Source: Blasia pusilla (lineage: Eukaryota). Taken from it: a DNA stretch of 64,000 nucleotides. Both the position numbers and the translations under genes were made by a program. Below the pieces are notes generated by a model. That model did no database searches, had not been told where the DNA came from, and was given only the letters and a program-made list of their open reading frames with translations. Of the stretch, positions 31,426-52,400 are shown piece after piece (the first letter of the stretch is position 1; each line of letters opens with the position of its first letter). Where the stretch lies: positions 1,426,001 through 1,490,000 of the forward strand of contig CM114271.1 in NCBI GenBank assembly GCA_050084515.1, in the 5' to 3' direction.

Positions 31426-34400
31426 ATCGCCCCCCTAGTTGGTGGTTAGGTCCCTCTAACTCTAGATAGCCATCTATCCCTACCTACCACGACATACATC
31501 TCTAGGATGCTAAGAGCAGAAAGGCCGGGTGCTCATGTGGCCCCATCGTTGATCGCCTTCATGTCTTCCATGTCATAAAAAAATCGGAATCGAAACCTAC
31601 CTAGTATCTCCTCTATGTACATGTGGGACACATCCATCGTCCCTGAGGAACCCTAGTGAGAGGTGGCGTCAGACATGCCATATGCCAACCTCTCGAACAT
31701 CCATCACAGACTAGCATCGTGGCCGTACCACGAGCAGAACCACACAGCATACAACGCAAGCCTGCAAAAACTACTGTTGAGCTTGGATCTACTGTTCCAT
31801 CAATGTTAGGAAGGTGACATGGCACACAATTACGCACATGGTCCTTCCACACTATACCATCGCGTCCCTCCAGCAAGAGAACACCACATGGCAAAATGTC
31901 ACACACTTTCAAGAGAGTGCGCCCTGCAGTCACATCCAACGTCATCGGTGCCTTCAGCTACAAGTAGACATAATCTCCCTGATGAAACCTCTGGATAGTT
32001 GGTTGATAACCACCACCCCAAATAGTCGCATACCTCAACGTATCCCGATGTTGCGCAATCGCCAAGTTCTCGAACGACATGGGCATCACTCTCCAAAACA
32101 ACTCAGCCCTCTGAGAACATCCTTGCATCCATACATCTGGGTCATCAAGGTCCAGCACCTCAACAGCATCTCGACGAATGGCCGTAGGTAAATCTGGCTC
32201 TCGGCCATAAAGTAGCAAGTACAGTGAAAAAGACGCTAAGGATTCCTGCCTGCTAGATCTTTATTCCATCGCCAACCACGGCAACTAGAGGTCCCAATCT
32301 CCTAGGTGACCTCTCTATAAGCCATACTTGCATAAACTCCTCTTCACCGTCTACACAACTCTCTCCGCTAATCCATCCGCCTCGGGATGATCTCGCGAAG
32401 TCGTGCGGTGTTCGATCATCAACTAATCACACAAGGTCTGGAACTCATCGCGTAACTCGGTACCCTGGTCTATCAACACCTCAGCCGATGCGCCATAATG
32501 ACTCAAAACTCTCTCAAGTAAGGCATAAGCTACTCCCTCACTCGCTTTGTCAAGCAATGCAACCAACTCGATCCACTTTGAGAAGTGCTCGACCATCACC
32601 AACACATAACGACTTTCACACTCTGTCAAAGGCAAAGGTCCTGCAAAATCCAAACTCCATCTTTACCCTAAGCCCATGATTGGTAATGGATGCAACTATG
32701 GAGTCGGAGCATTGAACGATGCTTGGACCTGATCGCACACCATGCACCTGGCAACAAATTTTTGAACGTCAGTCTGCATGCCTCGCCACCATACTAAATC
32801 TGGAGCAAGTTGTACGTCCGCATCACCCCAAATTGACCCAACTCCTCGTGGGCATGTTGCACTAGTCATGCTCTCTTCAAAGGATTTGGCACTACGCATA
32901 CTCTACCATCCTCCCAAATCCTCAAAACATGTGTCCCCTCCCAACGGAACTGTCTGGCCCGCTGTAGCATCCGATCCCGCTCTCTAGCACCCATGGTGCT
33001 TGCAATGCTGCCAGTACGAAGGTACTCCAAGACTACTCCATCATCGTGAATATCTCGGCCACGTGTCGTCTCCTCACTGGCCTCGGGATCCAAGGACTCT
33101 CCACTAGACCTCGCCATCGAAGTCTCCACACTCTGGCTCTCCATAGCCAACATGCCTAAATAGGCTGACGCGTGCCAAGCTTCCCTGTAAATCTTGTCGG
33201 ACTCCATCAACCACTTCAATGGTTGATGATCAGTGATGATGGTAAAGGGGCTGCCGAATAAGTAACACTTGAAATGCACGACAACCCACACTACAGCCAA
33301 ACACTCACCCTCATATGAGTTGAACTTTGCCTCTGCAACATTGTTCGAGCGACTAGCGTAAGCCACCATGAACTCTCTACCCTCATCATCATGTTGGTTG
33401 AGCACCGCTCTAAGCCCCAACATGCTCCAATCTGTGTGCAAGTGGAAAGGACGCCCCTTGATCTGTCTCCTCAAGATGGACACGGACGTCAACCTATTTA
33501 TGCTCGCTCCTACTCATCCCCCCAGTGCCACTTATGCTCAACCTTGGTCAGTAAGGTTACCGACTTCGCAATCGAACTAAATCACTTGACGTACCACCGA
33601 TAGAAGTTTGCCAATCCCATGAATGCGAGAATATGGCTCACATGTGTAGGGCATGGAATGTGTGAGATAGCCTCTACCTTTGTCTGCTAAACACCAAGGC
33701 CCCCTGGGTATATCATATGACCCAAGTTCCCAATCTGGTCGTAGAAGAACTTGCACTTGCCTGGATGTAGCGTCAGCCCATGTAATTGCAATCGTCAAAA
33801 CACCTCCTCTAGATGTCGCTCATGCTTCTCAACCATGGCGCTAAAGACTATATATATAACACCTAGCAAAATCTAGACCAGCCAAGATCCCATCCATGAT
33901 CCTCTGAAACTCAGCCGGGGCGTTCTTAAACCCAAATGGTAAGAACCGCCACTGGTACAAACAATCCTTCCCGTGAGGATCGATGCCCCAAAATGCCGTC
34001 TTCTGCATGTCCTCCAATTAATCTAATAGGCAACTGATGGTATCCGGCTCGCAAATCCAATGAACTGAAGACCTTTTCCTGACCAATCGCATCAAAGATC
34101 TCCTCAGGGATGGGCATGGCATACTTATTGGACTTCGTCTCCCGATTGATAGGTCGGTAATCCCCACACATCCTTCTATCCGTCCAGTTGCCATGCACAT
34201 CCTCCTTGGCGGGCATGACAATGGCAGATGCATACTCCCCATATGACATCTCCACTAGTCCTGCTCTGACCAAGTCCTGTCTCCTACTCTGAATCAGAGT
34301 CCTCTCCATATCAGTGTACCTGTAGGATCATCGGAAGATCGACGTATCACTCGACAACTCAATGCGGATCCCCGGTCCCTTCAGCATACCCAAATCCTCC

Positions 34401-34465
34401 ATGCTAAACGCAAAGCAACTCCTATAACTCTTGAGGAACTGATGTATCCGGCGCCGCTCTCCTCT
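31426..34465 (-). mobile_element. Ty3/Gypsy copy B pol: RT, RNase H, integrase, C-terminal PHD finger
   Basis: RRMCGDYRPIN, FSSLDLRAGYHQ, LHTDWS..VAYASRS..TDHQPLKWL, integrase DFAGP..IDQGTE, PHD finger. Many stops. Confidence 0.92.
31616..31753 (-). other. PHD finger at the integrase C-terminus
   Basis: CMLCGSARGTATMLVCDGCSRGWHMACLTPPLTRVPQGRWMCPTC gives a full C4-H-C3 pattern. Confidence 0.92.
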
Positions 34466-36879
34466 GGGGGCTGGTATTCTGGCAGGAGAGAGTAAGAGAG
34501 GAGAGGAAGAGAGGAAGAGAGGAGAGTCTCTCTTCAAAAAAAAGGGCCAAATCCGCCTCCTCTCTTCAAAACTTTATGACATATTTGAAATTTTTGTTTG
34601 CTTTCAAATCCATGAAAACTTTAGAAGAGAGTAGGTAGTGGTCCACATTTGGTCCTAAAAAAACCTCCTTTTTCCTTGGGGCGAAAAAAAAATAGACATC
34701 ATAAGACCACTACAAACATTTTTCATCTCCTCATCTCGGTCAACAAAAAGCAATGCCCTTGGTATTTTTGTTGGAGGACCACCGGATGCCAACCCTAAGC
34801 ATCTACTCCAAGGCATCTTGCTGACATTTCTACCTCATCTACTTCGAACCTGCCTAACTAAAGCCTCTTGAGCAACATTGATGGCATAGGCTCGACCTGT
34901 CTCTTGGACATGCTTGAAGGTGAGATCTACCTCTATATTCTTCCCATGCTTGCTTCTTCTCAATCTGGTTCGAGCCCCGCCCTCAGTTCACACCTCCACT
35001 TAGCTCCACCTAGACAAATCTTCCAGAAATCACTCCTTGGATCCTCTCAACTCCATAGATCTCTCCCTTGGATTCTCAAGCTTTATGGCCTTCAAATGAG
35101 GTCCTCTAGGCTTCCATGAGGAATATTCTAGCCCACAAGAGTCCAAGCATTTGAGCTCAGCCTCCATTGACCTCTTCTTAGCCCCTTATTCTTCATTTCT
35201 TGGCCCTAACAATCAGATCCACCCCCTTGGTTCAAACCCTCCTCTACAACAGCAATCAAGCACTCTATCTCCTTCATTGGATACCCTGGAGACTCCCTAG
35301 TGCCTACACCATCTCCCTTGTCTCCTCTAGGCTTGAGGTCAATGGAGTGACTTGGCTGCATTATCACCTTGTACAATCTTCTTGACTTGTTCTTGGACAG
35401 CGTGCTGCTGGGCCTTTCTCTTGCACCACCTCCACAAGTCCAAAAAACATATTCCAGAAAACTTTTACAAAAACCATTATGGGTTCAAAAAATCTCGTCC
35501 TTTATTACCTCCGAAGGAACCTCGAAAATGTACATTGAACCTAGTCTATGATTTCTTCAGCCTCGTCATCTACAAATTTACTCCTAACTCTCCTCGGTGG
35601 CATGATACCAAAGGAATGTCCTGGGATTCAAGTGGCTCCTCGGCGGTTGTAGACGGGGATCGAAAATGTTGGCGATTTGAGAGCCTTGGCCCCCCCTAGG
35701 TACACCATAACGGTCCCATGTAACTGTCTCGAGTCCCACCGCCTTCCTCGGTATACCTTGTACGCTCGCAATGTGACACCCATCCAAGTATCAATATCGC
35801 TCCGTCCCGGTAATACCACTATGGCAACCGCAGGTAGAAGGAATCCAACACGTCGAGAGAAGAAAAAAGCCCTCGCTGCCTTTACGAGTTGAGGGGAAGG
35901 TGCCAAGGAAGAAGCCCGCCAGGATCGCCTCATCCGAAAGGGTCCGATCAGGCAACCTGTCGGAATCGACATGGTTTCTGGAGGTGGTAAAAGGGTCCGA
36001 TGGTCAAAAGCGAAAAGTTGAGGAGAAATCCGACGGTTGCGTGGTCATAAAGTGAAAATTGCAAGCGGGAGAAATCCGACGGGTTGCAAAGTAGAAGACC
36101 GTGGAGTACATAGATGATCACATTCGAAAAGACAAAATGATCACCAAACATTTACAAGCACCACCATCGATTGAAAAAATCTTTACGCTTTATATCATCC
36201 GAAAAAAGCTCGGAATCAGACATTTGATCTATTCTATGAAATCTTTTGCCAAATTATCAAAAACTCCCTACTCCAAAGCAGCTGCAGTCAAGTTGGGTCG
36301 TTGAGTTCTTTGAACTCACTCGTCATCGCCCGAGAGCTCTTGCAAAATCACTTTCGGCCTTGCCCCCGATTTTGGGAATCGTTGGAAGTGACGATGGACT
36401 CACTACCAAGGGTGGCTCGAACCGAGCTCTCGGCCCGGTGGAGAGTTGTACGCCCAACGAGCCTTTCAGATTCTGCCTTTGCCTCCTTGCAAAGGTCAAG
36501 CGATTCTGCTTTCCTCGAGCGGAGAATGTTCTGCCACTCTGCCAGCGCCTCGATACTCGCCCTGAAAGGCCCACTAAGTCGAACACCAAGTCACCCGGCC
36601 TTGAGCAGAGCTCGATGAGCGTTGCATCGGTCGGGCGACTTTTCCCTTCCTCCCGAAGCGGGTATGTCTTGCATGTAAATTCCGAGGGGAATTGTACAAA
36701 CTATCTAAGCTGTACCCATCGGGCATGGATCCACAGGATCCTGGATCTTGAACACTGGAAATTGTGCTCGGGCCAAATGAAGCAAGACACGTAGGAGTGG
36801 TCCATCGTAAATCAAGACAAAACAATGTCGAAACTAAAGAAGTCGCTTGAGAAGATTTTCAATAATCGACTTTGGATCA

Positions 36880-37250
36880 ACTTTGTCGGAGTCCGACGGG
36901 TTGTTTTGTCCCGGACCCACCCGTTGGAACCCGGACGGGTTGCGATTCTTTTGGGTTTTCCAAGTTGATTTTGGTTTTTTTCGGATGCAACCCGTCGGAA
37001 GCGGACGGGTTCCGCCTAGACCAGCCCATGCTCTTTGAGAGAAACCCGTCGATAGCAACCCGTCGCTATTAGGCGGGTTGCATCCAAAACAAAATCAATC
37101 GCAACCCGGAACCCGACGGGTTGCGGTACACCGCATGTGTTTTCCCCGTATGTGGGAAAGATGCAACCCGCCGGAAACCGACGGGTTGCTCACCGAGCAT
37201 GGGCTGCTCTAAGCCGACAACCCGTCGCCTTCCGCGGGTTGCTCACGAAA
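36880..37250. repeat. Palindrome cluster 1 (about 7 copies, intronic)
   Basis: Variants of GCAACCCGTCGGA-N-TCCGACGGGTTGC at ~36885, 36918, 36987, 37055, 37101, 37163 and 37218. Confidence 0.9.
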
Positions 37251-39558
37251 AAAACCAGGCATCGACTCTCATTCTACACATCATTATAAGATAATTGAAA
37301 TTATTGTATAGAATATAGCCTTACCGAATCGACTCGTTGCGGATCGAGTGGGTACTCGCTTTTTATGATCCATGATTGTGCCGTCCTCCACTTTAGCGAC
37401 CTCTTGACGCACTAGAGGTTGAAGAGCTCGTCCTCGCTCCCTCGATCCAACACCAAGAAGCAGCCCTGTCACTTAGATAGGCGTCGCAAAGGAGAACAAA
37501 AGTGCAATCGGTCATAAGTGAGCGGCAGATTCCACTCAGGTACCTCGTCCGCCGGATTTTCGCCCCAAAGTCGCAACCCCGAGGGCAGATCGGCGATCAA
37601 GAGATCCACCGCAACCTCTTCCACCACTCCATTCACCGTCCAGGCAGCGTGCCCGTTTCATTGGAGCTTCCTTCCCAGCGTTGTCACTTTTTCGATAGCA
37701 GTTGTCGACGCTTGAGAACTGAAGTTGTTCAGCTCATCCAGTAAAGAGGTGAACTGAAGGAGGACGCTTGTCCGGGTCATTGTTTGTCTGTGTCTTCCCA
37801 AGGATGATGGGCTGTATTCTCCTTGGGACAACCCGAGCACCTCTCGCTTCCGCTTCTCTCTAGTCTGGGGACGGCTTGTCGGGGTTTCGATGACCTCGGA
37901 TTCTGGTGGCGTTTTCTTGGCCGAGGACCTGGTCCGACCCTCTCTTCCCGCTCGTCCGGATGATTCCGCCTCTGGCCTCTCATCTTCAGGCTCTCTTTGG
38001 GAAGTCTCGGCCTCTGAATTTTTCCCTCCCCTCGCCTTGCCTTTGAGACCCGCTGTGGATTTGTCTTTGGCTGTCCGGACCTTGGAAGCCAACTCAGTTG
38101 TCTCGTGGGCCTGCTCTTCTGCATCTCCTCCGAAGAAGTCTTCAGGCTGGACAAAATTGGGGATGTCGTCTTGTCCTGAGGCCACTGCATCATGAAGCAC
38201 TCGTAAGTCCTTATCCGCGATGTCTTCAGGGTCGTTGAAGTCGAGCCAAATGGGGCAATTCTCCACCTCCCAATCCGACATGTGCTGACCCATCTCCACG
38301 TCATTCATGGAGAATGTCTCTGCATCCGGCGGCGAAGCCCACAATTTCAAGGCTACCGGCAATTTTCCCCATGTACCTGCGTTCTTACACTGGACGAGGT
38401 ACCTGAATACCATCCGTTGGGCAGATTTTAGTCAAACATTATCGGCCGTCTGCTCCTGTAGATCTCGCTTCTTCTTCGCTTGATCCCGTTTGTTACCCTC
38501 TACTTCTATGTCAAGCTCTGCCTGAGGGAGGACGCAAACCTTGAACATGGTCTTGAATCCAGGGTTCTTGGTTGGCTTGTCCCGGATGTCGTCGAGCCAA
38601 ATCTTGTAATCTCCAGAACTTTCAAGGTTTGCTTCCGGCGGAATGGGCTCTAATCTTCGAGCTCGCTTGCGGACCCGTCAAAGACGGACTTCCCGATTAC
38701 CGCGGGCGTCCCGAAAGGACCATTGGCGTAGCCAATGCGAGATCACTGGATCGGACACACCTGGAGGATGGTGTGCCGCCCTCTTCCGGGCCCTCGAGCC
38801 CGAGATCGATTTTCATCCATCGTATCCTCTGAACTTCGCTAATCCCGGATAACGCAAAATGATGCACGCGATCCAGCGACACTTTCTCCCCAATCCGACC
38901 ATGCGGATCTTCATCCCTCTTCGCGACGCTTGATAATCGCCTTGAGCTCCTTGTAGAACTCCGGACCAAGTTCGGGGTTGAGAATCTTGATGTATCGCTG
39001 CATCTTGCTCGCCGTGTATTTTGTTGCAACAGATCTGGCGGCTTGGATGAATTTGGCGCTCAGACGCAGATACCTTCTCCCCGCTCGGCTCGGTCGGCGC
39101 TTTTCTTGCGGCCTGTATCTTCGACCAACAAAGGATGGTGAATGCCGGTAAGCATCTTGAGAAATAAACTTGTTTGCCCAAGTTTTCTTCTTAATTTGAG
39201 CACCGGAGGGAATGTTACCCACCATCTGATTGACAAGGGCATCTTGCAAAGGGTGCTCAAATTAAGAAGAAAACAAACCTCAAGATACTCATCCTTTGTT
39301 GGTCGAAGATGCGTGAAGAAAAGCACCTTCCTCACGGAGGGAGAAGGTATCTGCGTGATCCTGGATCCAATGGTGGGTAACATTCCCAAGATCCGATACA
39401 ATTCTCAACCCCGAACTTGGTCCAGTTCCAAACTCAACGTCAGAAGAGGGATGAAATTACATTGGGTTCCGCATCCCGTTATCCGGATTAGCGGTTCAGA
39501 GGTCGATCATGAAAATCGCTTCGAGGGTCGGATTCTAAGAGGGCAACCATCCTAAATG

Positions 39559-39950
39559 ATGCAACCGTGAGTCCGCTACGGGTTGCATTCAGATTTGCTA
39601 ATGCAAGGTAAGCAACTCGCCGGACTCGACGGGTTGCCGGCTCGCACGCTTTTTCGGATGTTTTTAAGATTGCAACTCATCGGACTCCGACGATTTGTAT
39701 GATTGAACATATATTTAACTAGTTGTTGGCCCAAAGCAACCCGTCGGACTCCGACGGTTTGCTTTTGGGCCAAAACTAGTTAAATCTATGTTCCATCAAA
39801 CAAGTCGTCGGAGTCCGAAAGTGTCAATCTTAAAAGACATTCGAAACCGTCGATCTAGCAACCCGTCGGAGTCCGAAGAGTTGCTTTCTGCCTAAACAAA
39901 CCTAACCCATTCATCAATCGAGCAACTCGTCGGAGTCCGACGAGTTGCAA
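39559..39950. repeat. Palindrome cluster 2 (7 copies, ~60-bp period, intronic)
   Basis: Copies at ~39561, 39612, 39672, 39736, 39800, 39858 and 39922. Confidence 0.92.
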
Positions 39951-41417
39951 AAGTGTTAAAGATACTTACGTGTTCATGGCATGCATTGCCATCTCCACCG
40001 TCGCCATGTGATGAGGGTATGGGTGAAGGACCCGCCTTGCACGCAGAAATGTGCCTCAATGAGTTGGGGCTCCTCCATAAACTTGGTCCACGCCATGAAC
40101 TTGTGATTTCCATCCCGGATGAAGAAATGCAGATTCCTCATCCGGCTGAATTCCGTGCCCTCAACTTGCTCTTCAAGTCCTGGTCTCGCATCCTCCGAAT
40201 GTGTCGAGATTTTCCAAGTCCTCCTCAGTAACGAGCTTGGGTTCCATGCTCGTCGTGAAGGCTGAACATAGAAGGGAGGAAAATTGTCCACGAGGATCTT
40301 TGTCGCCGCCGATTGTTTTAGCTTTGCGATGTCCTCGTCGGATCAGTATTTGCGGACGTATTCCATTGTCCTTAATGGCGAGTGGAATCCTCGGGCGTTG
40401 TGGCCCTCCATGAGTGCCATCCGCTTTACCACCTGTCGAACCGGGACAAGAGGAATAAGCTACACTGAAATCCCAATGAATTGCAATTCACATAATTAAA
40501 AAACCGAACCTCTCTTACCCGCTTGAAAATGGAGTCGGTTTCTTGACCAGCTAACTTGTATGCGAGACAGGGGTGGCAAATCGATCGGGAACTCGTCGAT
40601 CCGATAGAGGTCGATGTCCTCCGCCGGGCTTGGAGTCGAATGACCTCTCTCCGGCTTCTTCCGCCATGTCCACCATCTCCACACGTTGGCGGTCCTCATG
40701 ACCTCGTCGTCATCAAGTTGAACAGTGTTGTTTCCACTATGTTGATTGTGTCCCGGACCGTGGGGACATTTCCGCATCTCAACACTTGTGGTTGGACGGG
40801 CTGGGCTATCGTCAATGGCTATCTCTTTTTCCCGCCTCGCTTTAGCCAATTCCGCCCTCCTCAACGACGCGTCCAGACGCTTCTTTTCTCTCTTTTCGTC
40901 AGCGATCCTTTTCTTCAAGGCCTGCGACGTCTCGGCCTCTTCGTTCTGTTTATCTAGCGCCGCTTGATTAAGTCTCGCCAGAAGCACTTGGTTGTGCATC
41001 TCCGCTTCCCTTTCCCGCTCCTCGATTTCCTGCTGCCTAATTTCATTCGCCAAACGAGGCGCAGGAGAAGCTGACGCAGGAGTTATAATGGACTTGGGAG
41101 TGAAGCTCCCGGACTTGTTGGCTTGTGTTTTTTTCCTCATCATTTTTGCCGGAAATGCCTCCGCCTATGTCCACGACGAATCCCTTGATCAGTCGCCTTG
41201 CTGATGTCGAGATGGGAGCTCGTCTCGCCTTGGTGGTTAGCTCGAATCGTCCCGATATCGCTCGGTCAAACCGTCTCGCTCTCGTTCCGTCCTATCGACT
41301 CGCAATGTGTCGCCGTGTGAAATGCTCCTTCGTATCTGATCAGTTGCTGCGCGGGAGAGTGAGGAGTGAGGAATGAAGATCGTGAAATGAGAAACCGGAA
41401 ATGAGCGACTTCTGCCC

Positions 41418-41425
41418 TATTTATA
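41418..41425 (-). promoter_or_regulatory. Candidate TATA box of the ParB/MTase-like gene
   Basis: TATAAATA on the minus strand, ~275 bp upstream of the ATG at 41143. Confidence 0.5.
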
Positions 41426-41509
41426 CTTTTCTAGCCGTTGGGCTGACCGTTGGGTCCCGTCGTCCTTTCGACGGCGACGTGCCGAATCTTACGGAAGTCC
41501 GGACGTGAA

Positions 41510-42185
41510 AAATCGCAACCCGTCGGAGTCCGACAAGTTGCGCGGCTCCGCCATCCTGGGTACGTCGCCACGTGCGCGAGCAACCCGTCGGAGCCCGACG
41601 GGTTGAGCGCCTCCGTCGTCTTCGGAAAAGAACGCGAGGTACCCGCGCAACCCGTCGGAGACCGACATGTTGCGTGCCTCCGCCAACGGCGTCGCCGCCG
41701 TCGCTTGAGCACCCGTCGGAGACCGACGGGTTGAGCGCCTCCGTCGTCTTCGGAAAACAACGCGAGGTACCCGCGCAAGCCGTCGGAGACCGACATGTTG
41801 CGCGCCTCCGCCGTGTTTGGGACGGGAACGGGACGTATTTTGGGCAATCCGTCGGAGACTGTTGGGTTGCATGCTTCCCTTATCAAGGGTTAGGAACGAT
41901 GGCTTCCCGTGCAAGTCGTCGGAGTCTGGCTGGCTGCACCACAAGGCGACGCCCTTGCGCAACCCGTTGGACGGCGACGGGTTGCACGCCTCGCCGGGAA
42001 CAGACGGTTTGCACGCCTCCGGCATCTTCGAGCAAGAAGGAGCGGTATCCCAGCAAGTCGTCGGAGAGCGACGGGTTGCTCGCTTCGACAATGTTTAGCA
42101 GAAGCGTGCAACCCGTCCGATGCCGACGGGTTTGCAAGCCGTAAGCCGGGTAATTTCGAGTTACCAAGACTCCGACGGGTTCCAA
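41510..42185. repeat. Palindrome cluster 3 (about 12 copies) in the divergent promoter, including a ~129-bp tandem duplication
   Basis: Copies at ~41515, 41580, 41647, 41709, 41775, 41844, 41911, 41959, 41986, 42053, 42108 and 42168. Confidence 0.92.
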
Positions 42186-42323
42186 GTGATGCGCAACCCT
42201 CGCTTCCCAAACGGGAACATATTGCAACACAATTGAATGTGTTCTGGTGGATCCATTGTGTCGACAATCTCCCCACCGAATTCATCTTGTCAAAAAATCA
42301 TCAGAGTATCATTTCCTATTCAC

Positions 42324-42330
42324 TATAAAT
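42324..42330 (+). promoter_or_regulatory. Candidate TATA box of the MULE transposase
   Basis: TATAAAT just downstream of palindrome cluster 3 and upstream of the transposase frames. Confidence 0.4.
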
Positions 42331-42544
42331 TAAATATTCTCATTCTCATTCTCGTCTCCTCCGTAGGAATCTTCTTGGAATGGATAATTATGTTAAGCTC
42401 ACTTGTGGGAGTCATCCGCGGCCCTTCCTCAATCAAAATCATTCGACCCCAAGCTCGTGAGTCTTTCGTAGTAGTGGATGAAAATTTTTCATCATTCGAT
42501 TTCTTCTTCAAATTGGAACCATCTTTGTATCCAAAGATGTTAGG

Positions 42545-45500
42545 GTGGAAGGTACGGAAGACATAATAGGTGAGACGATCCAGCCTGTGACCTCGCACCG
42601 TAAAGTATGGAATCTCCTACCATGCCGCAAATGGTCAATACAGAGTTTATGGCCTGCCCTTGAATTCGTCTGTTTCCCAAGTAGCGGTCTAGAATTTCCT
42701 AGTGCTCCGAGCTCACGTTTGCAACTCCAAGCTCTGCAGATCCGGCCGACTCCAACCGACGCTCAGAACAATGTTGTTCTTCCCTGAAGAGATTACGGAT
42801 GTTATCAACCTCGGCGGATCGTCGGACACCAATCGGGCCTGTGTCCGCCTACGTTCCTCTTGCGAGTATCGGCAATAGTTTGCTTTCGTCTCGCCCTTGA
42901 AAATGTTCAAGCATATTCTTGTCGACGAGTTGCCGCCCACGCACGATGGTAATCGCATTTTTGAGTTGCCTCCACTTGCCGCTCTGCTCAAAAGAAGGAT
43001 GGAGGGCGCTGAAGGGTATGGGAGAAAGTCGATTGTCATCGATGGTGCAGCTTCAACGGACGGTGCTTCCATCCGAGATGGTCCTTGGATTGTCTCCCCC
43101 GCCGCCAATGCGTGGGAGCCTTGGAGTGTAGAAGTCCAACATGCCCGTATCTAGAGCGCAACGGGCGAGTCAATACGCCGTAATTCCCCCAAGAATGCAG
43201 AAACTCCATACGAGGTGGGTGCCACAATACCGCCGGGAGGCCATCGATGTCCTCATTGTCGCATCGCCTTCGCGTTGGAGCGTGTCCTGCATACATATTT
43301 TCATTGTCCATGACTTGGGCTCCACGCCGGTGAATACAAGGTCGGGCAGTTCATGTTGGCTCCCACACTCATCCCTGTGACCGATGCAATTCAAAGACAC
43401 ATCAAGGAGGATGTGGCAAAGAAAGTAGCCGAGGTCTTCAGAAACTCTCCGGGTTCAAAGCCCGGGGTGATCAAGCTCACAACGGCATCACAAATTTGTG
43501 AACAATTTCTTGGAATTCCTGGACAGGGCGAGATCACGGCGGTTGAGGAGAAACAACTCTGGGAAAATCTCGCATTTCTCGCTGATCATGAATGCTTCAG
43601 GAATTTGCTGCGTGAGATACGAGTTCTGGATGGAAAGACGGCCGAAATGGATGCCATCGCCAGAATCAAGGCCAACTCCAGGTTTCCATTCATTCAGAGA
43701 TGGTAGTTCATGGGCCAAGGAGGCGAGGGATCCAGGGCCTATGTCTTCAAAATGTCAACCACAGGTCCGTCGAGTGGCCTCGATCTTATAGATCGAATGA
43801 GGGAAGGGGAAGATCTTTACGGGAGTTGGGTCAGCTTTGATATTTGCTACAGAGTGCTGAACGGATGGTTGACAATGGGTGCTCACGTTTATGACCATGT
43901 GGAGAAGGGACTCAAAACTATATTTGTGTGTGAAGTAAAGGCAAAAGATGTTGGCAGTTTGAAGATGTGCTGGTTACTCTTATTGGAGGTGGTGAAGGAA
44001 AACAAAAGGCCACCTCCGGAAATTTATGGGTTCATGGCGGACAATGCACAACCTGGGTGGATTGCTATCCGGGAAGTGTTCTGGGGTGGAGAGGTTCAAC
44101 TTGAGAGGGAAAGGTCGGATGCTTTCCATTGGCAACAGTCTGTGACCCGGTACACCAAATCTTGCCATCAAGGAGAATAAGAGGACGGAGCATGTCACTC
44201 TACTCCAACGCTGCAAGGACAAAAAACCTTGAAGCGAGGCCATGGACCGCCAGAAGAACTTCATGGGTGGTGGAGGAAGCATGCGATTGAGGGGAAGTAC
44301 AAAGAGTTGTGCTCTTGGTTGAGTTGGTGGACTGTACGTATGAGACAATGGGGAAACTTCATGCGGTAGGTGAGTTCACTATTTTGTCTTGTCAAGCTCA
44401 CGCTGAGAATTGTTTGTAAAGTTGTAGCTCAGGGTGAGAAGTGTGGGAATTATATGGATTTCAAACCCAAGAGACCAAGCAAAGTTTGATGCGACGGGTT
44501 GCCCGAGGTTGCCCGAAACCGACGGGTTGCCGAGTGTGCAACCCGACGGAAATTGACGGGTTGCATCCACATGTTTGGTGTCATCTCGGTGTGCAACCAT
44601 TCGGGACCCAACGGGTCATAGAGTCGTTCATGGGATGCTCGCCTTGCAACCCATCGGGTTCTAAGGAGTTGCGTGAGGTGGGTTTAAGGTTACAACACGC
44701 CGGGACCGACGGGTCGAGAGTCGTTCATGGGATGCTCGGGCCGCAACCCGCCTGGTTCCGGCAGTGGCTTATTTCTTTGACTCTTGGGTTATTTTCGTTC
44801 CCTTCTAACATTGCCGCTGCAGTGGATTGAACGTTCATGAAAATGCCCTCTGCCCCAACACAAGTGGAGCAGAAAGTGTTCATTCCTCTTGGAGGTCGTC
44901 ACAAGCATGCCAACGAATTTCACTTGTGGAGGCATGCCAACAAGACCAGGCAAGAGCAATGCTGATCTGCCTGCAAAGATCCCATATCTTTCTCACAAAA
45001 GGCATAACAAAAAAAAAAAAAAAGGGCCGTCGATCTACGAGCTCTATGTTAGGGCGGCTGTGAGATCTGGTGATGAAAAATTGTATGTCGAAGCCTTCAA
45101 CCGGTGCGTAGCTGGAACTCCACTCGAGCAAGACGTACACATAGGTGGGGATATTCGTGGGCGGGTTTCAAGACGTCCCATACAGATGGTGGTAGAGCAA
45201 TTAAGACTTATCGAACGAGACTCGTGGAGACCAGATAAGTATCTTGACTTCAGGCAGGTGAAGAGGCAGATCGAGGAACAAATCCGGTGATTGATTTGGA
45301 TGAGGAAATTACACCGCCCAGGTATTCGGGGACCCCGGACCCGTCCCAAATCCGTGATGGAGTTACTTCTCCAAAATCAGTGAATGTTTTATTTCAAAAG
45401 CCCTCCGTTGCTGGAAGTTCGCAACATCCCGCATCCACCGGGTGGTTCAACAATATGGGATTCGGTAATGGAGGTGGATTGCAACCTAAAACGGTGGCAT

Positions 45501-46340
45501 ATATCTTGGAGCAACCTAGGACGTGGACCCACTGCGGGCAGGCAGGATCTGATGGCATTAGGAGAGCATGCGGCACTTTCCTAAATAAGAATCTGCACAA
45601 GGATCGACGACCACCGCTCGGGTTTTGGGGACTCAAAACCTTTGATCGTTTCACGAGGACCGGGGATCAATTGAAGTACTTCTTCTGCCCAAATGAATCT
45701 TGCCCTTTCCGGAAGTCTTATCCGGCTGCCATTGGAGGTCCCGGGAATACCCCCACGATTTGGCCCATCGCCGCAGGCACAAACTGCACTCAAGACGAAG
45801 TGGACAATCTTACAAGTGCCGGTTTCGCACTCAGAGACGGGGAAGTTCGAGCATGTTCAGCATTTAGAGACCTTTGCATTTCGTATTCAACCCAAGATTG
45901 ATGTCAACATGTACCCGGAGAAGGTGGATGATCTCAATCCATTATTTTTTTTTGAGTCTAGAAATGGGGTGAAGAGAAACAGAATGTGTAGGCCAACGGT
46001 GGAGAGAGCAAAACAAATTGCAACAGCTCGGGAGGCAAAAATGGAGATCATCGCCACGAAAGATGTCCTGAGTGGCAATGGAATAGGAAGGATGTATTGG
46101 GTCACGAACAACACTGTAAATTCAAGTGTCACAGGGGTGTATGTGGTGCACATCTGTTGCTTTCCCACATGTTCATGTGATGACTTTGTCCAAAGAGAGA
46201 CAAGTGGCAAAAGGTATTTCCCTTGTAAGCACATGTACTATGTGTTCTTTGGTAGTTTTAAGAGAGTCGAGGTAGGAGTAGGAATCCACCAACCAGTGTC
46301 CCTCAAAGAAGTTCAAAGTATTTTAAACAAACCACTTTGA
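42545..46340 (+). pseudogene. MULE DDE transposase with C-terminal SWIM finger; frameshifted
   Basis: SWVSFDICYRV, GFMADNAQPGW, DAFHWQQSV, WLSWW, TSGAESVHSSW and SWIM CSCDDF..PCKHMYYVF. Intron 44370 (GTGAGT) to 44822 (TGCAG). Start position approximate. Confidence 0.85.
44490..44770. repeat. Palindrome cluster 4 (about 6-7 degenerate copies) in the transposase intron
   Basis: CGACGGGTTGC, GCAACCCGACGGAAATTGACGGGTTGC and related variants between donor 44370 and acceptor 44822. Confidence 0.8.
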
Positions 46341-46741
46341 GGATGCAAAATGAAGTTTAAGATTGTACTTTTATTTTTTTCTCAACCTTCACTTTGTGAG
46401 CTTGAACTCTATTCAGCCGCGGCAAATGATAGATTTTTTCCAGACCTTGGATGGAAAAAGTGATTGGTTCCACACTTATGATTCCACTGATTTCTCTGTT
46501 TTGTAAATTTTGTGCAATTTGCAACTTTCTTCGGACTCAAAGGGTTGCCAAAATATGGAAGAAAAAAAAAATGTGGGATTGTTTAATAAATGAACAAAAA
46601 GTGCAAAAAAATCACACAAAAAGTTTCCTCTCTTCAACCCAACGGAAACTCTCTTCAAAAAAAAGTATCTATTTCGGTTGAAGGTAGTTTCCTCTCTCCT
46701 CTCTCCTCTCTTCCTCTCTTCCTCTCCTCTTACCGCACCTC

Positions 46742-47090
46742 CTCTCCTCTTGTCAACTTAGGGCCCATATCTGGCTCCCAAGTCTCCATCGTGACTACAG
46801 TAGGACTCTTCGGCGCGGATATCGGTGGTTGCTATGGTGCAACCGCGTCTCAAACAACAACACTTGGCCGCTCTCCTCCAGCCAACTGCAAACTTAGATC
46901 TCCTCCATGTGCAGTGCCCGGAACCACGCTCGATGTTGTGGCTATCATCTCCTAGCGTACCTGCAAAACATCCCAAGAAGTCCAAGGGTATCTCTCTTGA
47001 TCTCCCCTATTGTGTAGATCTCCTCGGGTCTCACCCCCAGCCACTGCCTCCGCCATGTTGCACTCAATGTTCTCGGCGGTCCTAAAAACA
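46742..47090 (-). mobile_element. Upstream remainder of Gypsy copy B (pre-RT linker)
   Basis: VVTMETWEPDMGPKLT matches EVTMETWERVIGLMLT in copy A (~25945-25992). Confidence 0.8.
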
Positions 47091-47114: not shown

Positions 47115-48135
47115 TATAGTAAAGGATTTCTATCAAGAGTTTAACAAGAAGTATCAATTGATCTGAATTCGTTCCCTTTAAGAATAGGATCTGGATTAGA
47201 AATTACATTTAAAGATTTTGAGTTGATTCTGTGTAGTCTATGCATCAACAAAGCATAAGGTGGATTTAACAGTAGCACCAGACGTGTACAACTGAACAGG
47301 ATTTTAACTATAAGGAGGTGAACTCCTCCTAAAACAGAATTAAATCGAAGGGAATGTCAAATTCTAGAGACATGGTAGTACATAAGTATTTTCGACACGA
47401 AAAAGAGACTGCGGTGAGACATATGATCTCCCTCTGCCAAACTCATTCGAAACAGAGATGTGTGGAGAAATGATTCTCAATTAATACGTCGGCTCTTTAC
47501 TTTTGCTTGAAGATACTGTTGTCATTCTCCAACTCCATCCTCAAAGCCATCAATAACAAGTGAGACTGATTCGGGGGTTCAAAGAGAAATAATTCTTCAT
47601 TCCAAGAAGAGCAACTACTGTTGATTCGATGGAATGGGTCAGTTTCGTTCTTCAATGGCCGATCTCTAAGGGCGAGAGTCTTCTGTCACAAGAGCTACTC
47701 TTCCTGGTAAGTATCTGACTATGAAAATGGAAAAAAGACCCTTCTTCGACTCCCGGCCTATGGTTCAAGGGGTCGAAAGCTTACATTCCTAACTGTAATT
47801 ATGTTTAACTTCTTCCTAAAGCTACCAACCGTTCAACTCCTGCAGTGTTCATCGAATCAATATCTTCACTAAAAACTGTCACGTAACTGTCAAAATTGTG
47901 AACTCGTGGAAAGGCAAACTCGTGATCCCTTGAGCTCAGAATTAATTCCCAATGATTTAAGTGGGCTAATAACTGAACGTTCCTAGTTTCAAATAGATTC
48001 CAATTTATTCTTATTTCCTAATATGTATTCCCTATTCCTAAATCTAAGTGGAATATTCTTAACTAAGGGAATTATTGCCTAGATGTATCTAAAATCGTCT
48101 AAAATCTCTACAACTTAAGAAAGGTGCATATCACA
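47115..48135 (-). repeat. 3' LTR (1021 bp)
   Basis: Starts TGTGATATGC at 48135 on the minus strand after the PPT (48138-48148). Near-identical to 57369-58370. Confidence 0.93.
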
Positions 48136-49499: not shown

Positions 49500-52400
49500 A
49501 GGACGCGGAAGGATAGTATTTTTTCACTCTAGCCCCATTGGTCCTGGTAGGTAATTCTTCCCCTTCCATATCAACAAGTTGGAGACTTCCATTCTCCTAT
49601 ATATTAAGAACTTGATATGGGCCCATCCACCTGGTATGTAATTTTCCCGGAAACTTGGTAAACCTGTTATCATACAGTAATACCCAATCCTTAGCCTGAA
49701 TATTTGTATGTTTTAACTTCTTGTCATAAGCTTTCTTTCTCTTGGCTTTTTGAAGATAAGTTTCCTTCAGGGCATCATCTGGTCTTCCTCTACCTGTTCC
49801 GATTGTTGCAGGCAATGCAATTCACTCTCTTCTACCCCGGATCTTCTTTGATTCATAACACGGTAAGTGGGCAGGTCAAACTCAATAGGAATCACTGAGT
49901 CCATACCATAAGTCAGGTAAAAAGGGGTTCGCCTTGTTGTAATCTTTTCTGCTGTGCAGTAAGCCCATAAAATTGATGCCAACTTGACATCCCAATCAGT
50001 CTTATGTGCAGACACAATCTTGGTAAGTATCTTACACAGCAATCCATTGGCTCTCTCTGTAAGACCATTGGCTTTTGGATTATAGGGTGTAGTTGGGCGA
50101 TGTTTAATGAAGTAAAAACTAGTCACAGCTTCAATTGTAGAATTAAGAAAGTGTGTGCCTCTGTCACTAACCAGCTCCAGGGGACAACCAAACCGAGTGA
50201 TAATGTTGTCAAAAGAAAATGGGTTGTTACCTATGCATCATTAGTCTTGAGGGCAATAGCTTCAACCCACTTGGTTGCATAATCTGTAGCGACAAGAATA
50301 TATCGGTTCCTTTACGCTTTGTGACGGGTTGGATGGGGCCTACAAAGTCAATGCCCCACTTTTCAAAAGGGGCTAATGGAAGGATGGGTATCAAGGGCCA
50401 CCTCCCTGACATTAAAGGCTTTCCCTGCCTTTGGCAAGGATCACAACTTCTAATGAATAAATGTACATCCTTATGCATGGTCAGCCACCAATATCCCGCA
50501 TCGCGAATTTTGGCCATTGTTGTGTGAACAGCATAATGTCCACCAGCATTCCCCTGATGGAGAGCGCTGATGACTCTCAAAATCTCCCTTTTCTCTAAAT
50601 ATCTCTTCAACTTCTGATCAGGAGTTAGCTTATATAATGTATTCTGAAGCAAGGTATAGGGTCTTGCTTTGTGGACAAAAACAGCTCTCTGCTCTACAGA
50701 CAGCTTGGCAGGAATGATTCCACGCTACAAGTATTGGACTATATCAAAGTATAACGAATCCGCTCCTTCAATGTGGAACACGGCTTCATTTGGGAAAGAA
50801 TCAGAAATCTCAGCTAAAGGTCCCACTCCTGCAATCTCGAAAGGTAATCAGCATTGGCATGGGACTTACCCGGCTTCACTTGTACTTCAAATGAAAATTC
50901 TTGGAGAAGGAGTACCCATCTTGCTATGCGCTTGGATAGATCAGCCTGATTAAATAAATATTTCAAGGCATTATGATCCGTATGGAAGACAGTATCATAC
51001 CCTAGCAAGTAATGGCGAAAATTTTTGCAAGCATATACTATGCCTAAGGCTTTCCTTTCTGTTGTTGAGTAATTCTTCTCCGCAGGATTAAGCTTCCTGC
51101 TCGCGTAGTAGATGGGATGGTCCATCCCTTGAGAATCTTTCTATCCAAGGACAAGGCCTATGCAAAACTTGGAAACGTCAACATCCATATGGAAGGATTT
51201 GTTCCAATCTGGAGGTTGTAACACAGGTGCATGCATGAGCTTGTCCTTGAGGGCTTGGAATGCCACCTGTCTTTCTTCAGTCCACAAGTACTCAGCATCC
51301 TTCCTCAATAACTGAGTAAGACTGGCGGCAGTTCGAGAGTAGTCCTTAACAAAACGCCGGTAGTACCCCACACAGCCAAGGAATCCTCGTAATTCCTTCA
51401 GATTTGTTGGGATTTCCATAGCCAATATAACGGAAATTTTGTCATAATCTACCTTGATACCTTGTTTGGAAATCTTGTGGCCCAATAAAATACCTTCTAT
51501 CATCGCTAAGAAACATTTTTGTGCTTGTAGGGACAAGCGTGCCCATCCGCATCGTTCAAAGGTTTTTCGGAGATGTTCAATGTGATCCTCTGTTCGTCCA
51601 TATACACAGAAGTCATCGATGAACATTTCCATATACTCTCTTAGGAAGTCTTTAAATATGATCATCATTGTTTGTTGAAAAGTGGCTAGTGCATTGCATA
51701 GTCCAAAAGGCATCCGATTGAATGCAAATGTCCCCCAATCGGTTGTAAAGGTGGTCTTGCTCTAGTCCTCCTTCCTAATGTGAATCTGATTATAACCTGC
51801 ATATCCATCTAAGAAACATAATCTCTCACTGCCTGCTACTTTATCCAGAATCATATCAGTAAAAGGCAAAGGATGATGGTCCTTTCTGGTAGCAGCATTG
51901 AGCTTCCTATAATCTTGGCACAACCGGATCCTATATTCTCCATTGAGACCTGGGGGTTTAGGAGCAACTACTATTGGGGACACCCACTCACTAGACAGGA
52001 CAGGATATATGAAGCCTGCCTCCAGGAGTTTATCCAGCTCCTTCTTCACTAAGGAAGAAGATTTGGGATTTAACCTATACTGTCTCTACCTAACTGGCAC
52101 AGCTCCTTCTAATAAATCGATTCGATGTTCTGCTATTTCAATCGGAATCCCTTTCAAATCTTTGTGAGATTTAGCAAAAACATCTTCAAATTCAGTCAAG
52201 AGTTCAGCATACAGCTGCCTCTCCTGATTCTGTATGGTTACACTCATATTAAACTTTTTACCTCCCTTGATCACTAAGGGAGAATATTGTTCTAATCTAA
52301 ACATCCGCTCAGACATACTCTTTGTCTCTTCAAAGTAGGATCGGCTGTTTCCCAATCCCACTTCTATATTCTTACTATTCAGTGGTTGCTACTTCAGGTG

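What the first reader, a model, noticed from the sequence alone, without database searches (positions are those of the whole stretch)
34466..46741. Mutator-like element carrying a ParB-like plus amino-methyltransferase-like gene and arrays of a candidate palindromic target
Seen in sequence: a TSD-bounded 12.3-kb MULE with a transposase, a divergent multi-exon gene with DGNH and methyltransferase-like motifs, and about 30 copies of GCAACCCGTCGGA-N-TCCGACGGGTTGC in non-coding parts. Established: ParB-N6/N4 methylase fusions are common in phages and bacteria; ParB proteins load at palindromic parS sites; Arabidopsis VANDAL MULEs have poor TIRs and encode VANC proteins that bind motif arrays in their own non-coding regions to escape silencing. 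Inference: this could be a self-recognition or anti-silencing module built from prokaryote-like parts, in which the protein binds or marks the palindromes. I do not know of a description of this combination, but I cannot search the literature.
Basis: partly seen in the sequence, partly recalled or inferred. Interest (0 to 1): 0.93.

Follow-up and report, generated by a model that had tools for sequence, protein, structure and literature searches.

The report
Dead Mutator-like transposon with palindrome arrays
A decayed 12.3-kb cut-and-paste transposon of the Mutator kind carries dozens of copies of its own 27-base palindrome in its introns and between its two genes, probably docking sites for one of its own proteins, but the proposed ParB-plus-methyltransferase identity of its second gene finds no support.

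Summary
The structure is real. A 12,276-bp insertion (34466-46741) sits in a Gypsy pol gene. It has a 9-bp target duplication and terminal inverted repeats. It has a plus-strand transposase gene with distant relatives, one named from a liverwort, and a divergent minus-strand gene.

The half-site GCAACCCGTCGGA occurs 37 times inside the element and once outside (0.68 expected). It forms 19 degenerate full palindromes in four non-coding clusters.

The ParB-plus-methyltransferase reading is not supported. Pfam, PHROGs, NCBIfam and PADLOC give no such hit, even on read-through frames. A phmmer scan of 1.84 billion proteins finds no true relative of the DGNH exon. No methyltransferase motif exists. 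The fold model was unusable.

The closest relative that covers the same intron carries a different palindrome there, three times. This fits family-specific self-recognition sites, as in VANDAL/VANC.

This copy is dead: it has premature stops in both genes.

Verdict: a new variant of a known kind, of moderate interest.

The parts
34457..34465 (.). Left copy of the 9-bp target-site duplication CTCTCCTCT
   Evidence: Alignment of both flanks to the uninterrupted paralog at 25760-26020; sequence read
34466..34526 (+). Left terminal inverted repeat (outer 11 nt, 20-nt insertion relative to the right end, then a 30-nt perfect GA-rich core at 34497-34526)
35952..37242 (.). Palindrome cluster A, in the non-coding arm downstream of the minus-strand gene: 5 degenerate full palindromes plus lone half-sites
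37658..41143 (-). Second (accessory) gene, divergent from the transposase. The product has no detectable relatives. This copy is decayed
   Evidence: ORFs; sequence and splice signals; read-through frames; no homologs
40556..41143 (-). Putative exon 1 (ATG 41143; basic N-terminus and coiled-coil-like Lys/Glu-rich stretch), ending at donor GTTAGC
   Evidence: sequence read directly; the splice site is inferred
40040..40333 (-). Putative exon 2, in frame with exon 1 across a 222-nt intron. It holds DGNH (40103-40114), the only ParB-like feature
   Evidence: no profile or sequence hit
39574..39948 (.). Palindrome cluster B, in the intron after exon 2 (donor GTAAGT at 39969-39964): 5 full palindromes, including a 139-nt long inverted repeat centred at 39749
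   Evidence: RNA fold -98.1 kcal/mol, z -16.2
37658..38677 (-). Last exon of the second gene: one frame of 339 codons, interrupted by one in-frame stop at 38429-38431
41515..42183 (.). Palindrome cluster C, between the two divergent genes: 8 full palindromes in 67/128-bp tandem units. The ~200-aa ORFs on both strands here come from stop-free palindromes
43200..46340 (+). Transposase gene (approximate start): decayed zinc-finger region, DDE-type core, SWIM-like C-terminus
43374..44369 (+). Transposase core exon. It holds the invariant D (FDI/V), the second D (FMADNA) and ERSDAFH. In-frame stops lie at 43704-43706 (TAG), 44178-44180 (TAA) and 44367-44369 (TAG)
44370..44822 (+). Transposase intron (donor GTGAGT, acceptor ...TGCAG) holding palindrome cluster D (44490-44755: 1 full palindrome plus 6 half-sites). 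It is homologous to the palindrome-bearing intron of relative L002
44823..45063 (+). Exon with the NTSGAES motif, the likely third catalytic residue
   Evidence: tblastn to L002 1399-1533; assignment of the motif is inferred
45993..46340 (+). C-terminal exon with a CxC...CxH (SWIM-like) zinc finger
   Evidence: tblastn to L003, L004, L007-L009; Pfam SWIM only E 0.14
46701..46741 (-). Right terminal inverted repeat
46742..46750 (.). Right copy of the target-site duplication CTCTCCTCT

Best explanation
This is a decayed copy of a two-gene DNA transposon of the Mutator superfamily. It belongs to a divergent clade whose only named relative is from a liverwort, and it inserted into a Gypsy pol gene. 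It was probably moved in trans. Its four clusters of a 27-bp palindrome lie in an intron of each gene, in the shared upstream region and in one non-coding arm. They are most likely arrays of binding sites for a dimeric DNA-binding protein made by the element family itself, either the transposase (through its N-terminal zinc finger) or the orphan second protein. Such arrays would let the family recognise its own copies, for transcriptional control or anti-silencing, as VANC does in VANDAL elements and TnpA does in Spm.

Shown: the insertion, the genes, the arrays, their restriction to the element, and a different palindrome at the same intron in a relative.

Inferred: that a protein binds the palindromes, which protein it is, and what follows from binding.
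For: Insertion and ends: empty-site paralog, 9-bp TSD and TIRs.

Transposase family: 5 homologs at E 8e-66 to 8e-46, with invariant D...FMADNA...ERSDAFH. Intact relatives have a zinc finger ending HNHP, a C(2)H motif and a SWIM-like CxC...CKH. The top Foldseek hit is the ISCth4 transposase, whose PDB molecule name is 'Mutator family transposase'.

Arrays: 37 of 38 half-sites lie inside the element. There are 19 full palindromes in four clusters with unrelated flanks, all outside supported exons.

Relative L002 (about 50% identical transposase) has three copies of a different 22-26-nt palindrome, against 0 expected, in the intron at the same exon end WGN(F/Y)xR. That palindrome is absent from the window.

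Literature: VANC21 sits on motif arrays in introns, intergenic and terminal non-coding regions, and related families carry different motifs. A MULE transposase binds DNA sequence-specifically and activates cognate copies.

CpG observed/expected is 1.0-1.2 across 36-42 kb against 0.26-0.84 elsewhere in the window. This is compatible with a hypomethylated core, but a CG-rich motif also explains it.
Against: No binding data exist.

Co-variation rests on one relative. The other close relative, L001, has no intron at that site and no palindromes. Among the 12 more distant loci only modest or single-copy motifs were seen (these were chosen post hoc).

No half-site with <=2 mismatches lies within 1.4 kb of either end, where transposases usually bind.

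No Pfam MULE, FAR1 or significant SWIM hit was found for the window or for intact relatives. Superfamily placement therefore rests on architecture and two weak structural signals: the model has pLDDT 53.6, Foldseek E is 6.5e-3, and hmmsearch against PDB gives E 2.2.

The second gene has no relatives in any search and is absent from all 15 related loci.

Palindromes can also spread by slippage without any function.
Confidence: 0.5

Rival explanations
1. The second gene encodes a very divergent ParB/Srx-fold protein that loads at the palindromes as ParB does at parS. That would make this a land-plant counterpart of the ParB-like transposon accessory proteins reported in algae.
For: By eye, the exon 1 end plus exon 2 reads like the ParB N-domain layout, with IDLYRIDEFP...LSRIQ | DIAKLKQSAATKILVDNFPPFYV ... 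FFIRDGNHKFMAW. The ParB pattern is recalled, not tested. Protein-language-model neighbours of the exon include 2 clusters with ParB_N on 11% of members, score 0.91 (a lead only). In print: an opposite-strand ParB-like plus MTase gene in a brown-alga Sola1 element, and ParB-like PAG3 beside tandem arrays of inverted repeats in red-alga Plavaka. There ParB was seen only by HHpred at E 0.29 and not by InterPro.
Against: No ParB hit at E <= 1 to 10 in Pfam, PHROGs, NCBIfam or PADLOC, including a read-through that spans both exons. phmmer against 1.84 billion representatives gave only 3 repeat-driven false hits. No PDB sequence hit at E <= 10. tblastn against phages gave no ParB. About 45 residues separate the two ParB-like boxes, far more than I recall for ParB. 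The motif has K where ParB has R. The palindrome core is absent from 185,579 prokaryotic genomes and from IMG/VR.
Confidence: 0.15
2. The full first-reader model: the second gene is a ParB-N6/N4 amino-methyltransferase fusion that marks the palindromes.
For: Only the published precedent in algal transposons.
Against: PF01555 or any other methyltransferase family is absent from all three minus-strand frames of 34466-46340 and from the plus frames of 34466-37299 and 41400-46340. None of the single ORFs scanned gave one either. The second gene has no (D/N/S)PP(Y/F/W/H) motif. In the red alga InterPro did find PF01555 in PAG2, so this domain is normally detectable.
Confidence: 0.03
3. The palindromes are functionless by-products: hairpin-prone short inverted repeats that spread inside non-coding DNA by slippage and unequal exchange, and are tolerated only where no exon is disrupted.
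For: Cluster C is a 67/128-bp tandem array. Many copies are degenerate: 110 mismatches in 59 half-sites, 34 of them C>T or G>A. Relative L001 has none.
Against: The same 27-nt unit recurs in four separate clusters whose flanks are not alike. A relative has a different palindrome at the homologous intron. Positions 2-5, 7, 8, 10 and 11 of the half-site are kept in 51-59 of 59 copies.
Confidence: 0.2
4. The arrays act as RNA: intronic and 5' hairpins are diced into small RNAs that silence, or self-limit, the family.
For: The stretch 39670-39830 folds into a near-perfect 160-nt hairpin, -98.1 kcal/mol, z -16.2. Clusters B and D lie in introns and are therefore transcribed.
Against: Most units are 13-bp stems with a 1-nt spacer, too short for dicing. 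No Rfam family matches. Cluster A lies outside both genes. No small-RNA data could be examined.
Confidence: 0.1

Closest known systems
VANDAL21 (Hiun) Mutator-like elements of Arabidopsis with the anti-silencing protein VANC21 (PMC5735166, passages read)
   Same: A MULE with more than one gene. A short motif is arrayed at high density in introns, intergenic and terminal non-coding regions, often as tandem repeats. Related families carry different motifs.
   Different: The motif here is a 27-bp palindrome, not a 9-bp motif arrayed in one orientation. No VANC-type protein was detected (no Pfam hit in any frame). The TIRs are clear. No methylation or binding data exist.
ParB-like accessory proteins of algal DNA transposons: Sola1-1_Ec32 of Ectocarpus (ParB-like + N4C/N6A methylase; PMC12477816) and PAG3 of red-algal Plavaka (ParB-like + 2OG oxygenase beside tandem arrays of inverted repeats; bioRxiv 10.1101/2025.02.11.637652)
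   Same: An accessory gene on the strand opposite the transposase, with arrays of inverted repeats next to and inside it. Homologs of these accessory genes are reported in print in Mutator elements of Chondrus.
   Different: No ParB, methylase or oxygenase domain could be detected here. The host is a land-plant-like genome, not an alga. The sequences of the algal proteins were not available to me (supplements closed), so no direct comparison was made.
En/Spm (CACTA) TnpA and its 12-bp subterminal motifs (recalled; TnpA as a transposase-derived regulator in 10.64898/2026.08.24.746577, abstract read)
   Same: An element-encoded regulator with many copies of a short motif, some as inverted pairs, used for self-recognition.
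   Different: Spm motifs are subterminal; here they are internal. The superfamily differs (3-bp TSD in CACTA, as recalled, against 9 bp here).
Autonomous MULEs with FAR1/WRKY-type zinc finger, DDE core and SWIM finger (Jittery/FHY3-type architecture, recalled) and bacterial IS256
   Same: 9-bp TSD, TIRs and the domain order zinc finger (…HNHP in relatives), D…D…[C/D]xxH…E, then CxC…CxH. The top structural match is the ISCth4 'Mutator family transposase'.
   Different: No Pfam MULE, FAR1 or Transposase_mut hit, even for an intact 519-aa relative. This is a clade not covered by current profiles.

Membership tests
Mutator superfamily (MULE) DNA transposon | Target-site duplication of 9-11 bp (definition recalled) | tested here: met
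   9-bp CTCTCCTCT at both ends, fixed by alignment to an uninterrupted paralog
Mutator superfamily (MULE) DNA transposon | Terminal inverted repeats | tested here: met
   30-nt perfect core plus partly matching outer 11 nt
Mutator superfamily (MULE) DNA transposon | Transposase matches the MULE / Transposase_mut profiles | tested here: not met
   No Pfam family for the window's read-through core, for 5 homologs, for an intact 519-aa relative, or for six-frame read-throughs
Mutator superfamily (MULE) DNA transposon | DDE core with a [C/D]xxH motif after the second D (definition recalled) | tested here: met
   Invariant D176, D243 (FMADNA) and ERSDAFH in 6 of 6 sequences. L001 has CKFH. The NTSGAES exon follows. 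This is a pattern match only; catalysis was not tested
Mutator superfamily (MULE) DNA transposon | C-terminal SWIM zinc finger | tested here: inconclusive
   CSC…CKH is present and conserved in L003, L004 and L007-L009, but Pfam SWIM gives E 0.14, below the cut-off, and gives none for relatives
Mutator superfamily (MULE) DNA transposon | Fold like IS256/Mutator-family transposases | tested here: inconclusive
   The model has pLDDT 53.6. Foldseek's best hit is ISCth4 at E 6.5e-3, TM 0.27, and no hit reaches E <= 1e-3. Profile against PDB sequences gives E 2.2
ParB/Srx (ParB_N, PF02195) | Match to the family profile | tested here: not met
   No hit in Pfam, PHROGs, NCBIfam or PADLOC for 9 ORFs, the two-exon read-through, or three-frame read-throughs
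ParB/Srx (ParB_N, PF02195) | Signature DGxHR / GxxRxxA box (recalled) | tested here: inconclusive
   DGNHK at 40103-40114. It is four residues with K in place of R, compatible with chance
ParB/Srx (ParB_N, PF02195) | ParB/Srx fold | tested here: inconclusive
   The single-sequence AlphaFold2 model has pLDDT 31.4 and was unusable, so no fold search was made
N6_N4 amino-methyltransferase (PF01555) | Match to the family profile | tested here: not met
   None in any scanned frame
N6_N4 amino-methyltransferase (PF01555) | Motif IV (D/N/S)PP(Y/F/W/H) and motif I FxGxG (recalled) | tested here: not met
   The six-frame regular-expression search gave none in the second gene
VANDAL/VANC-type self-recognition system | Family-specific motif arrayed in the element's non-coding regions | tested here: met
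   Four clusters hold 37 of the window's 38 half-sites
VANDAL/VANC-type self-recognition system | Related families carry different motifs | tested here: inconclusive
   Seen in 1 relative (L002). L001 has none. The other 13 loci are short, distant, or show only weak post-hoc motifs
VANDAL/VANC-type self-recognition system | A VANC homolog that binds the motif and causes loss of methylation | not testable with these tools
   No Pfam family in the second gene. Binding and methylation need experiments
Algal ParB-type transposon accessory genes (Sola1-1_Ec32, PAG3) | Accessory gene opposite the transposase, with adjacent arrays of inverted repeats | tested here: met
   compared with the passages
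Algal ParB-type transposon accessory genes (Sola1-1_Ec32, PAG3) | Sequence or HHpred similarity to those proteins | not testable with these tools
   Their sequences were not on hand (supplements closed) and no HHpred is available. The phmmer scan of 1.84 billion proteins found nothing

The most novel reading that the evidence does not exclude
A land-plant (bryophyte-type) Mutator lineage carries an orphan accessory protein with a cryptic ParB/Srx-like fold. This protein recognises lineage-specific palindrome arrays inside its own element. That would extend the ParB-type transposon self-recognition so far reported only in algae to land plants, and would show that protein and palindrome co-evolve between subfamilies.
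Probability: 0.12. Interest if true: 0.75.

Novelty: new variant of a known kind. Interest (0 to 1): 0.45.

Why it matters
Only a few transposon families are known to recognise their own copies through arrays of short motifs: VANDAL/VANC, Spm/TnpA, and by inference the ParB-like accessory genes of algal transposons.

A Mutator clade outside current profile libraries has palindromic arrays at a conserved intron position, and their sequence differs between subfamilies. Such a clade would be a tractable second system for asking how protein and target co-evolve in a transposon. It would also show whether the central CpG-rich core escapes methylation.

This particular copy is dead, so its value is as a pointer to the family.

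Tried and rejected
1. Whole genome: none is held. Genome-wide occurrence of the palindrome and other copies of the family could therefore not be examined.

3. Sequencing runs: no RNA holder was listed. The single read-laying run returned no result, so there is no expression, splice or copy-number evidence.

4. Homologs of the second gene: none for the DGNH ORF among longer proteins. phmmer of the 100-aa exon against 1.84 billion representatives gave 3 hits, all internally repetitive unrelated proteins. None for the 257-aa ORF.

5. tblastn of all element ORFs >= 50 aa against 15 related loci hit only the transposase region.

6. Protein atlas (leads only, not used as evidence). For the DGNH ORF the neighbours were unnamed clusters; among named ones, DUF3723 (on 31% of one cluster's members; 8 hits) and ParB_N (11%; 2 hits). 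For the 257-aa ORF, Transposase_28 scored 0.86. No paper links DUF3723 to ParB. DUF3723 is discussed as a Starship accessory gene (listing only).

7. Structure: the transposase model is weak (pLDDT 53.6). The model of the DGNH region is useless (pLDDT 31.4).

8. A ParB profile from control genomes could not be built.

9. PDB sequence search and phage tblastn for the DGNH region gave nothing relevant.

10. The exact palindrome core gave 0 matches in prokaryotic genomes and 0 in IMG/VR.

11. Rfam: no family.

12. Literature: a search on Mutator-like elements, liverworts and palindromes found nothing specific. I did not search for this transposase clade by any name.

13. A first translation for the fold was in the wrong frame and was redone.

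14. Not scanned against Pfam: the plus-strand frames of 37300-41399 and the last 400 nt of the element.


Full report
WHAT IS THERE.

The window is eukaryotic, repeat-rich DNA. Fragments of Gypsy pol (RNase H at 32866-33513, minus strand) flank the feature.

A blastn of the flanks against the window found a diverged paralog at 25781-25990 that runs uninterrupted across the insertion point. A three-way alignment fixes the insertion at 34466-46741, 12,276 bp. It has a 9-bp duplication, CTCTCCTCT, at 34457-34465 and 46742-46750; the paralog reads TTCTACTCA there.

The ends carry inverted repeats. The outer 11 nt match at 7 positions. A 20-nt indel follows, and then a 30-nt perfect GA-rich core.

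TRANSPOSASE.

The plus strand from about 43.2 to 46.3 kb encodes the transposase. Read through its stops as X, the core 43314-44369 (P0001) found five homologs at E 8e-66 to 8e-46 and 36-44% identity. One of them is named by its source as a Calypogeia fissa (liverwort) protein.

The alignment has an invariant D, a second D in FMADNA, and ERSDAFH.

A scan of metagenome contigs gave 15 related loci. An intact 519-aa ORF in L001 and ORFs in L003, L004 and L007 show the full layout:
- a zinc finger ending H-x-G-x-HNHP;
- the D…D…C/DxxH core;
- an N…ES motif;
- a C-terminal CxC…CKH finger.

No Pfam model matches the window copy, the five homologs, the intact relatives or the six-frame read-throughs. 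The only exception is a sub-threshold SWIM hit at E 0.14.

A six-sequence AlphaFold2 model is weak, with pLDDT 53.6. Its best Foldseek match is the ISCth4 transposase at E 6.5e-3 and TM 0.27, with nothing at E <= 1e-3. A profile search of PDB sequences lists the same protein, named 'Mutator family transposase', at a non-significant E of 2.2.

I therefore place the element in the Mutator superfamily with good but not complete confidence, in a clade outside current profiles.

THIS COPY IS DEAD.

The homology-supported core exon has in-frame stops at 43704, 44178 and 44367. The zinc-finger region is interrupted by a stop and has lost the HNH residues (one search compared).

The intact TSD and the perfect TIR core suggest a fairly recent insertion. 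From that I infer mobilisation in trans.

SECOND GENE.

The second gene runs on the minus strand from ATG 41143:
- A 196-codon first exon ends at a GTTAGC donor (40555).
- A putative second exon (40333 to about 40040) lies in the same frame after 222 nt. It contains DGNH at 40103-40114.
- A GTAAGT donor lies at 39969, but the frame closes 5 nt before it.
- Later coding segments lie in different frames.
- The 339-codon last exon (38677-37658) has one in-frame stop.

So this gene is decayed too.

The 257-aa ORF exceeds the longest ORF in all 200 shuffles of the element (maximum 240, mean 156). The 222-aa ORF does not.

PARB AND METHYLTRANSFERASE.

None of the following gave a ParB or methyltransferase hit:
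- Pfam on 10 ORFs and then a further 10 ORFs;
- PHROGs and NCBIfam on 9 minus-strand ORFs;
- PADLOC on 7 queries;
- Pfam on a read-through spanning both exons, at E <= 10;
- Pfam on all three minus-strand frames of 34466-46340 and the plus frames of 34466-37299 and 41400-46340.

A six-frame motif search found no (D/N/S)PP(Y/F/W/H) or FxGxG in the gene.

phmmer of the DGNH exon against 1.84 billion representatives returned three hits. All are internally repetitive, unrelated proteins. Word-based searches for the DGNH ORF and for the 257-aa ORF found nothing. PDB sequences and phage genomes gave nothing relevant.

The fold could not be tested, because the single-sequence model has pLDDT 31.4.

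The only pointers towards ParB are two. One is my reading by eye of a ParB-like order of boxes around DGNHK. The other is a language-model neighbour list in which 2 hits carry ParB_N on 11% of their members. Both are leads, not evidence.

The methyltransferase half of the claim is close to refuted for this copy. The ParB half is unsupported but not excluded.

PALINDROMES.

With <=2 mismatches, the half-site GCAACCCGTCGGA occurs 38 times in the window. Of these, 37 lie between 35952 and 44658; shuffles give 0.68 +/- 0.85. With <=3 mismatches, 59 of 67 hits lie in the element. They form 19 full palindromes, with spacer 0-2 and mostly 1, plus 21 lone half-sites.

They lie in four clusters:
- A, 35952-37242, downstream of the second gene;
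- B, 39574-39948, in its intron;
- C, 41515-42183, between the two divergent genes, as 67/128-bp tandem units;
- D, 44490-44755, in the transposase intron 44370-44822.

Between clusters, only the palindrome plus a few bases is shared.

Cluster B contains a 139-nt inverted repeat that folds at -98.1 kcal/mol, z -16.2.

The core is absent from one genome each of 185,579 prokaryotic species and from IMG/VR.

RELATIVES.

None of the 15 loci has the window's half-site, apart from one 2-mismatch hit in L002. None has anything like the second gene.

L002 is the closest relative, with 51% identity over 144 residues of the transposase core. It has three copies of a different palindrome, TTGCTAGCGCCGGCGCTAGCAA, against 0 expected. 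One copy extends to a 60-nt hairpin. They lie in the intron that starts right after the homologous exon end WGNYIRL. In the window the exon ends WGNFMR-stop and is followed by cluster D.

That palindrome is absent from the window.

L001, the other close relative, has no intron at that point and no palindromes.

More distant loci show weaker features. One is a 10-mer enriched 25 against 9.4 +/- 3.0 in L004, chosen post hoc. Another is a single palindrome with a 23-nt core shared by L004, L005 and L007-L009.

MECHANISM.

The best reading is that the palindromes are arrayed binding sites for a dimeric protein of the family. The transposase zinc finger and the orphan second protein are the candidates. 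The sites would serve self-recognition, that is, transcriptional control or anti-silencing.

This is inferred from layout, from the L002 comparison and from published systems:
- VANC21 sits on motif arrays in introns, intergenic and terminal non-coding regions, with different motifs in related families (PMC5735166, passages).
- A MULE transposase binds its own TIRs and activates cognate copies (bioRxiv 10.64898/2026.08.24.746577, abstract and section 7).

CpG observed/expected is 1.0-1.2 over 36-42 kb. It is 0.44 in the left arm, 0.62 in the transposase exon and 0.26-0.84 in the rest of the window. This fits a core that escapes methylation, but the CG-rich motif itself inflates the value.

The rivals are a cryptic ParB-like loader, functionless hairpin-prone repeats, and a hairpin small-RNA source.

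WHAT IS KNOWN.

I could, and the idea is in print for algae.

[quoted passage not shown] Red-algal Plavaka elements carry PAG3, which is ParB-like by HHpred at E 0.29 only and also has a 2OG oxygenase domain. Tandem arrays of inverted repeats lie beside it. They also carry PAG2 (PF01555 plus SET). Homologs are reported in Mutator elements of Chondrus (bioRxiv 10.1101/2025.02.11.637652, passages).

Two searches for further reports added none beyond these two: one for ParB, MULE, transposable element and eukaryote, the other for ParB, DNA transposon, accessory, N6-adenine and inverted repeats.

VERDICT.

The ParB-plus-methylase label is not supported. The self-recognition idea remains plausible and has one piece of comparative support.

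It is a new variant of a known kind: a motif-array-bearing, multi-gene DNA transposon. It belongs to an unprofiled Mutator clade, and this copy is dead.

Noticed in passing
window 25781-25990: A diverged paralog (77-79% identity) of the Gypsy pol stretch that the element interrupts. It served as the empty site.
   Followed up: yes
window 47117-48104 and 57371-58370: A 1-kb direct repeat at 97.4% identity, with RT/RNase H ORFs between the copies (51141-51761, minus strand). It looks like the LTR pair of a second, nested LTR retrotransposon just right of the element.
   Followed up: no
window 36000-42000: CpG observed/expected is 1.0-1.2 here, the only CpG-undepleted stretch of the 64-kb window (elsewhere 0.26-0.84). 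The element's own arms and its transposase exon are depleted. No explanation was tested.
   Followed up: partly
window 41489-42144, both strands: ORFs of 201 and 211 aa on opposite strands across palindrome cluster C. They are most likely artefacts of a stop-free palindromic repeat, not genes.
   Followed up: no
window 34527-34575 and 46625-46670: The motif CTCTCTTCAA occurs twice near each end, in the same plus-strand orientation at both ends rather than inverted (read by eye).
   Followed up: no
window 18658-19383 (+) and 12491-13093 (-): ORFs with NSD-type PHD fingers (E 3.6e-7) and DUF5852 (E 4.9e-6) elsewhere in the window.
   Followed up: no
L004 1527-9488 (also L006, L005): The motif ATGTTTCAAT occurs 25 times with <=1 mismatch against 9.4 +/- 3.0 expected. 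Some copies form inverted pairs, and most (23 of 25) lie upstream of the transposase core. It was picked post hoc as the commonest 10-mer.
   Followed up: partly
L004 11426, L005 5263, L007 4938, L008 6880, L009 6920: A shared palindrome, GAGTCAAATTG-S-CAATTTGACTC (23 nt; extending to about 36 nt in L004), lies between the core and SWIM exons of these distant relatives, one copy each.
   Followed up: no
L002 1272: Just before L002's third palindrome lies a 13-mer two mismatches from the window's half-site. It could be coincidence or a trace of shared ancestry.
   Followed up: no
window 39974-40342 (-): Language-model neighbours of the DGNH ORF are mostly unnamed fungal clusters and DUF3723, a Starship accessory-gene family. 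No sequence-level link was found.
   Followed up: partly
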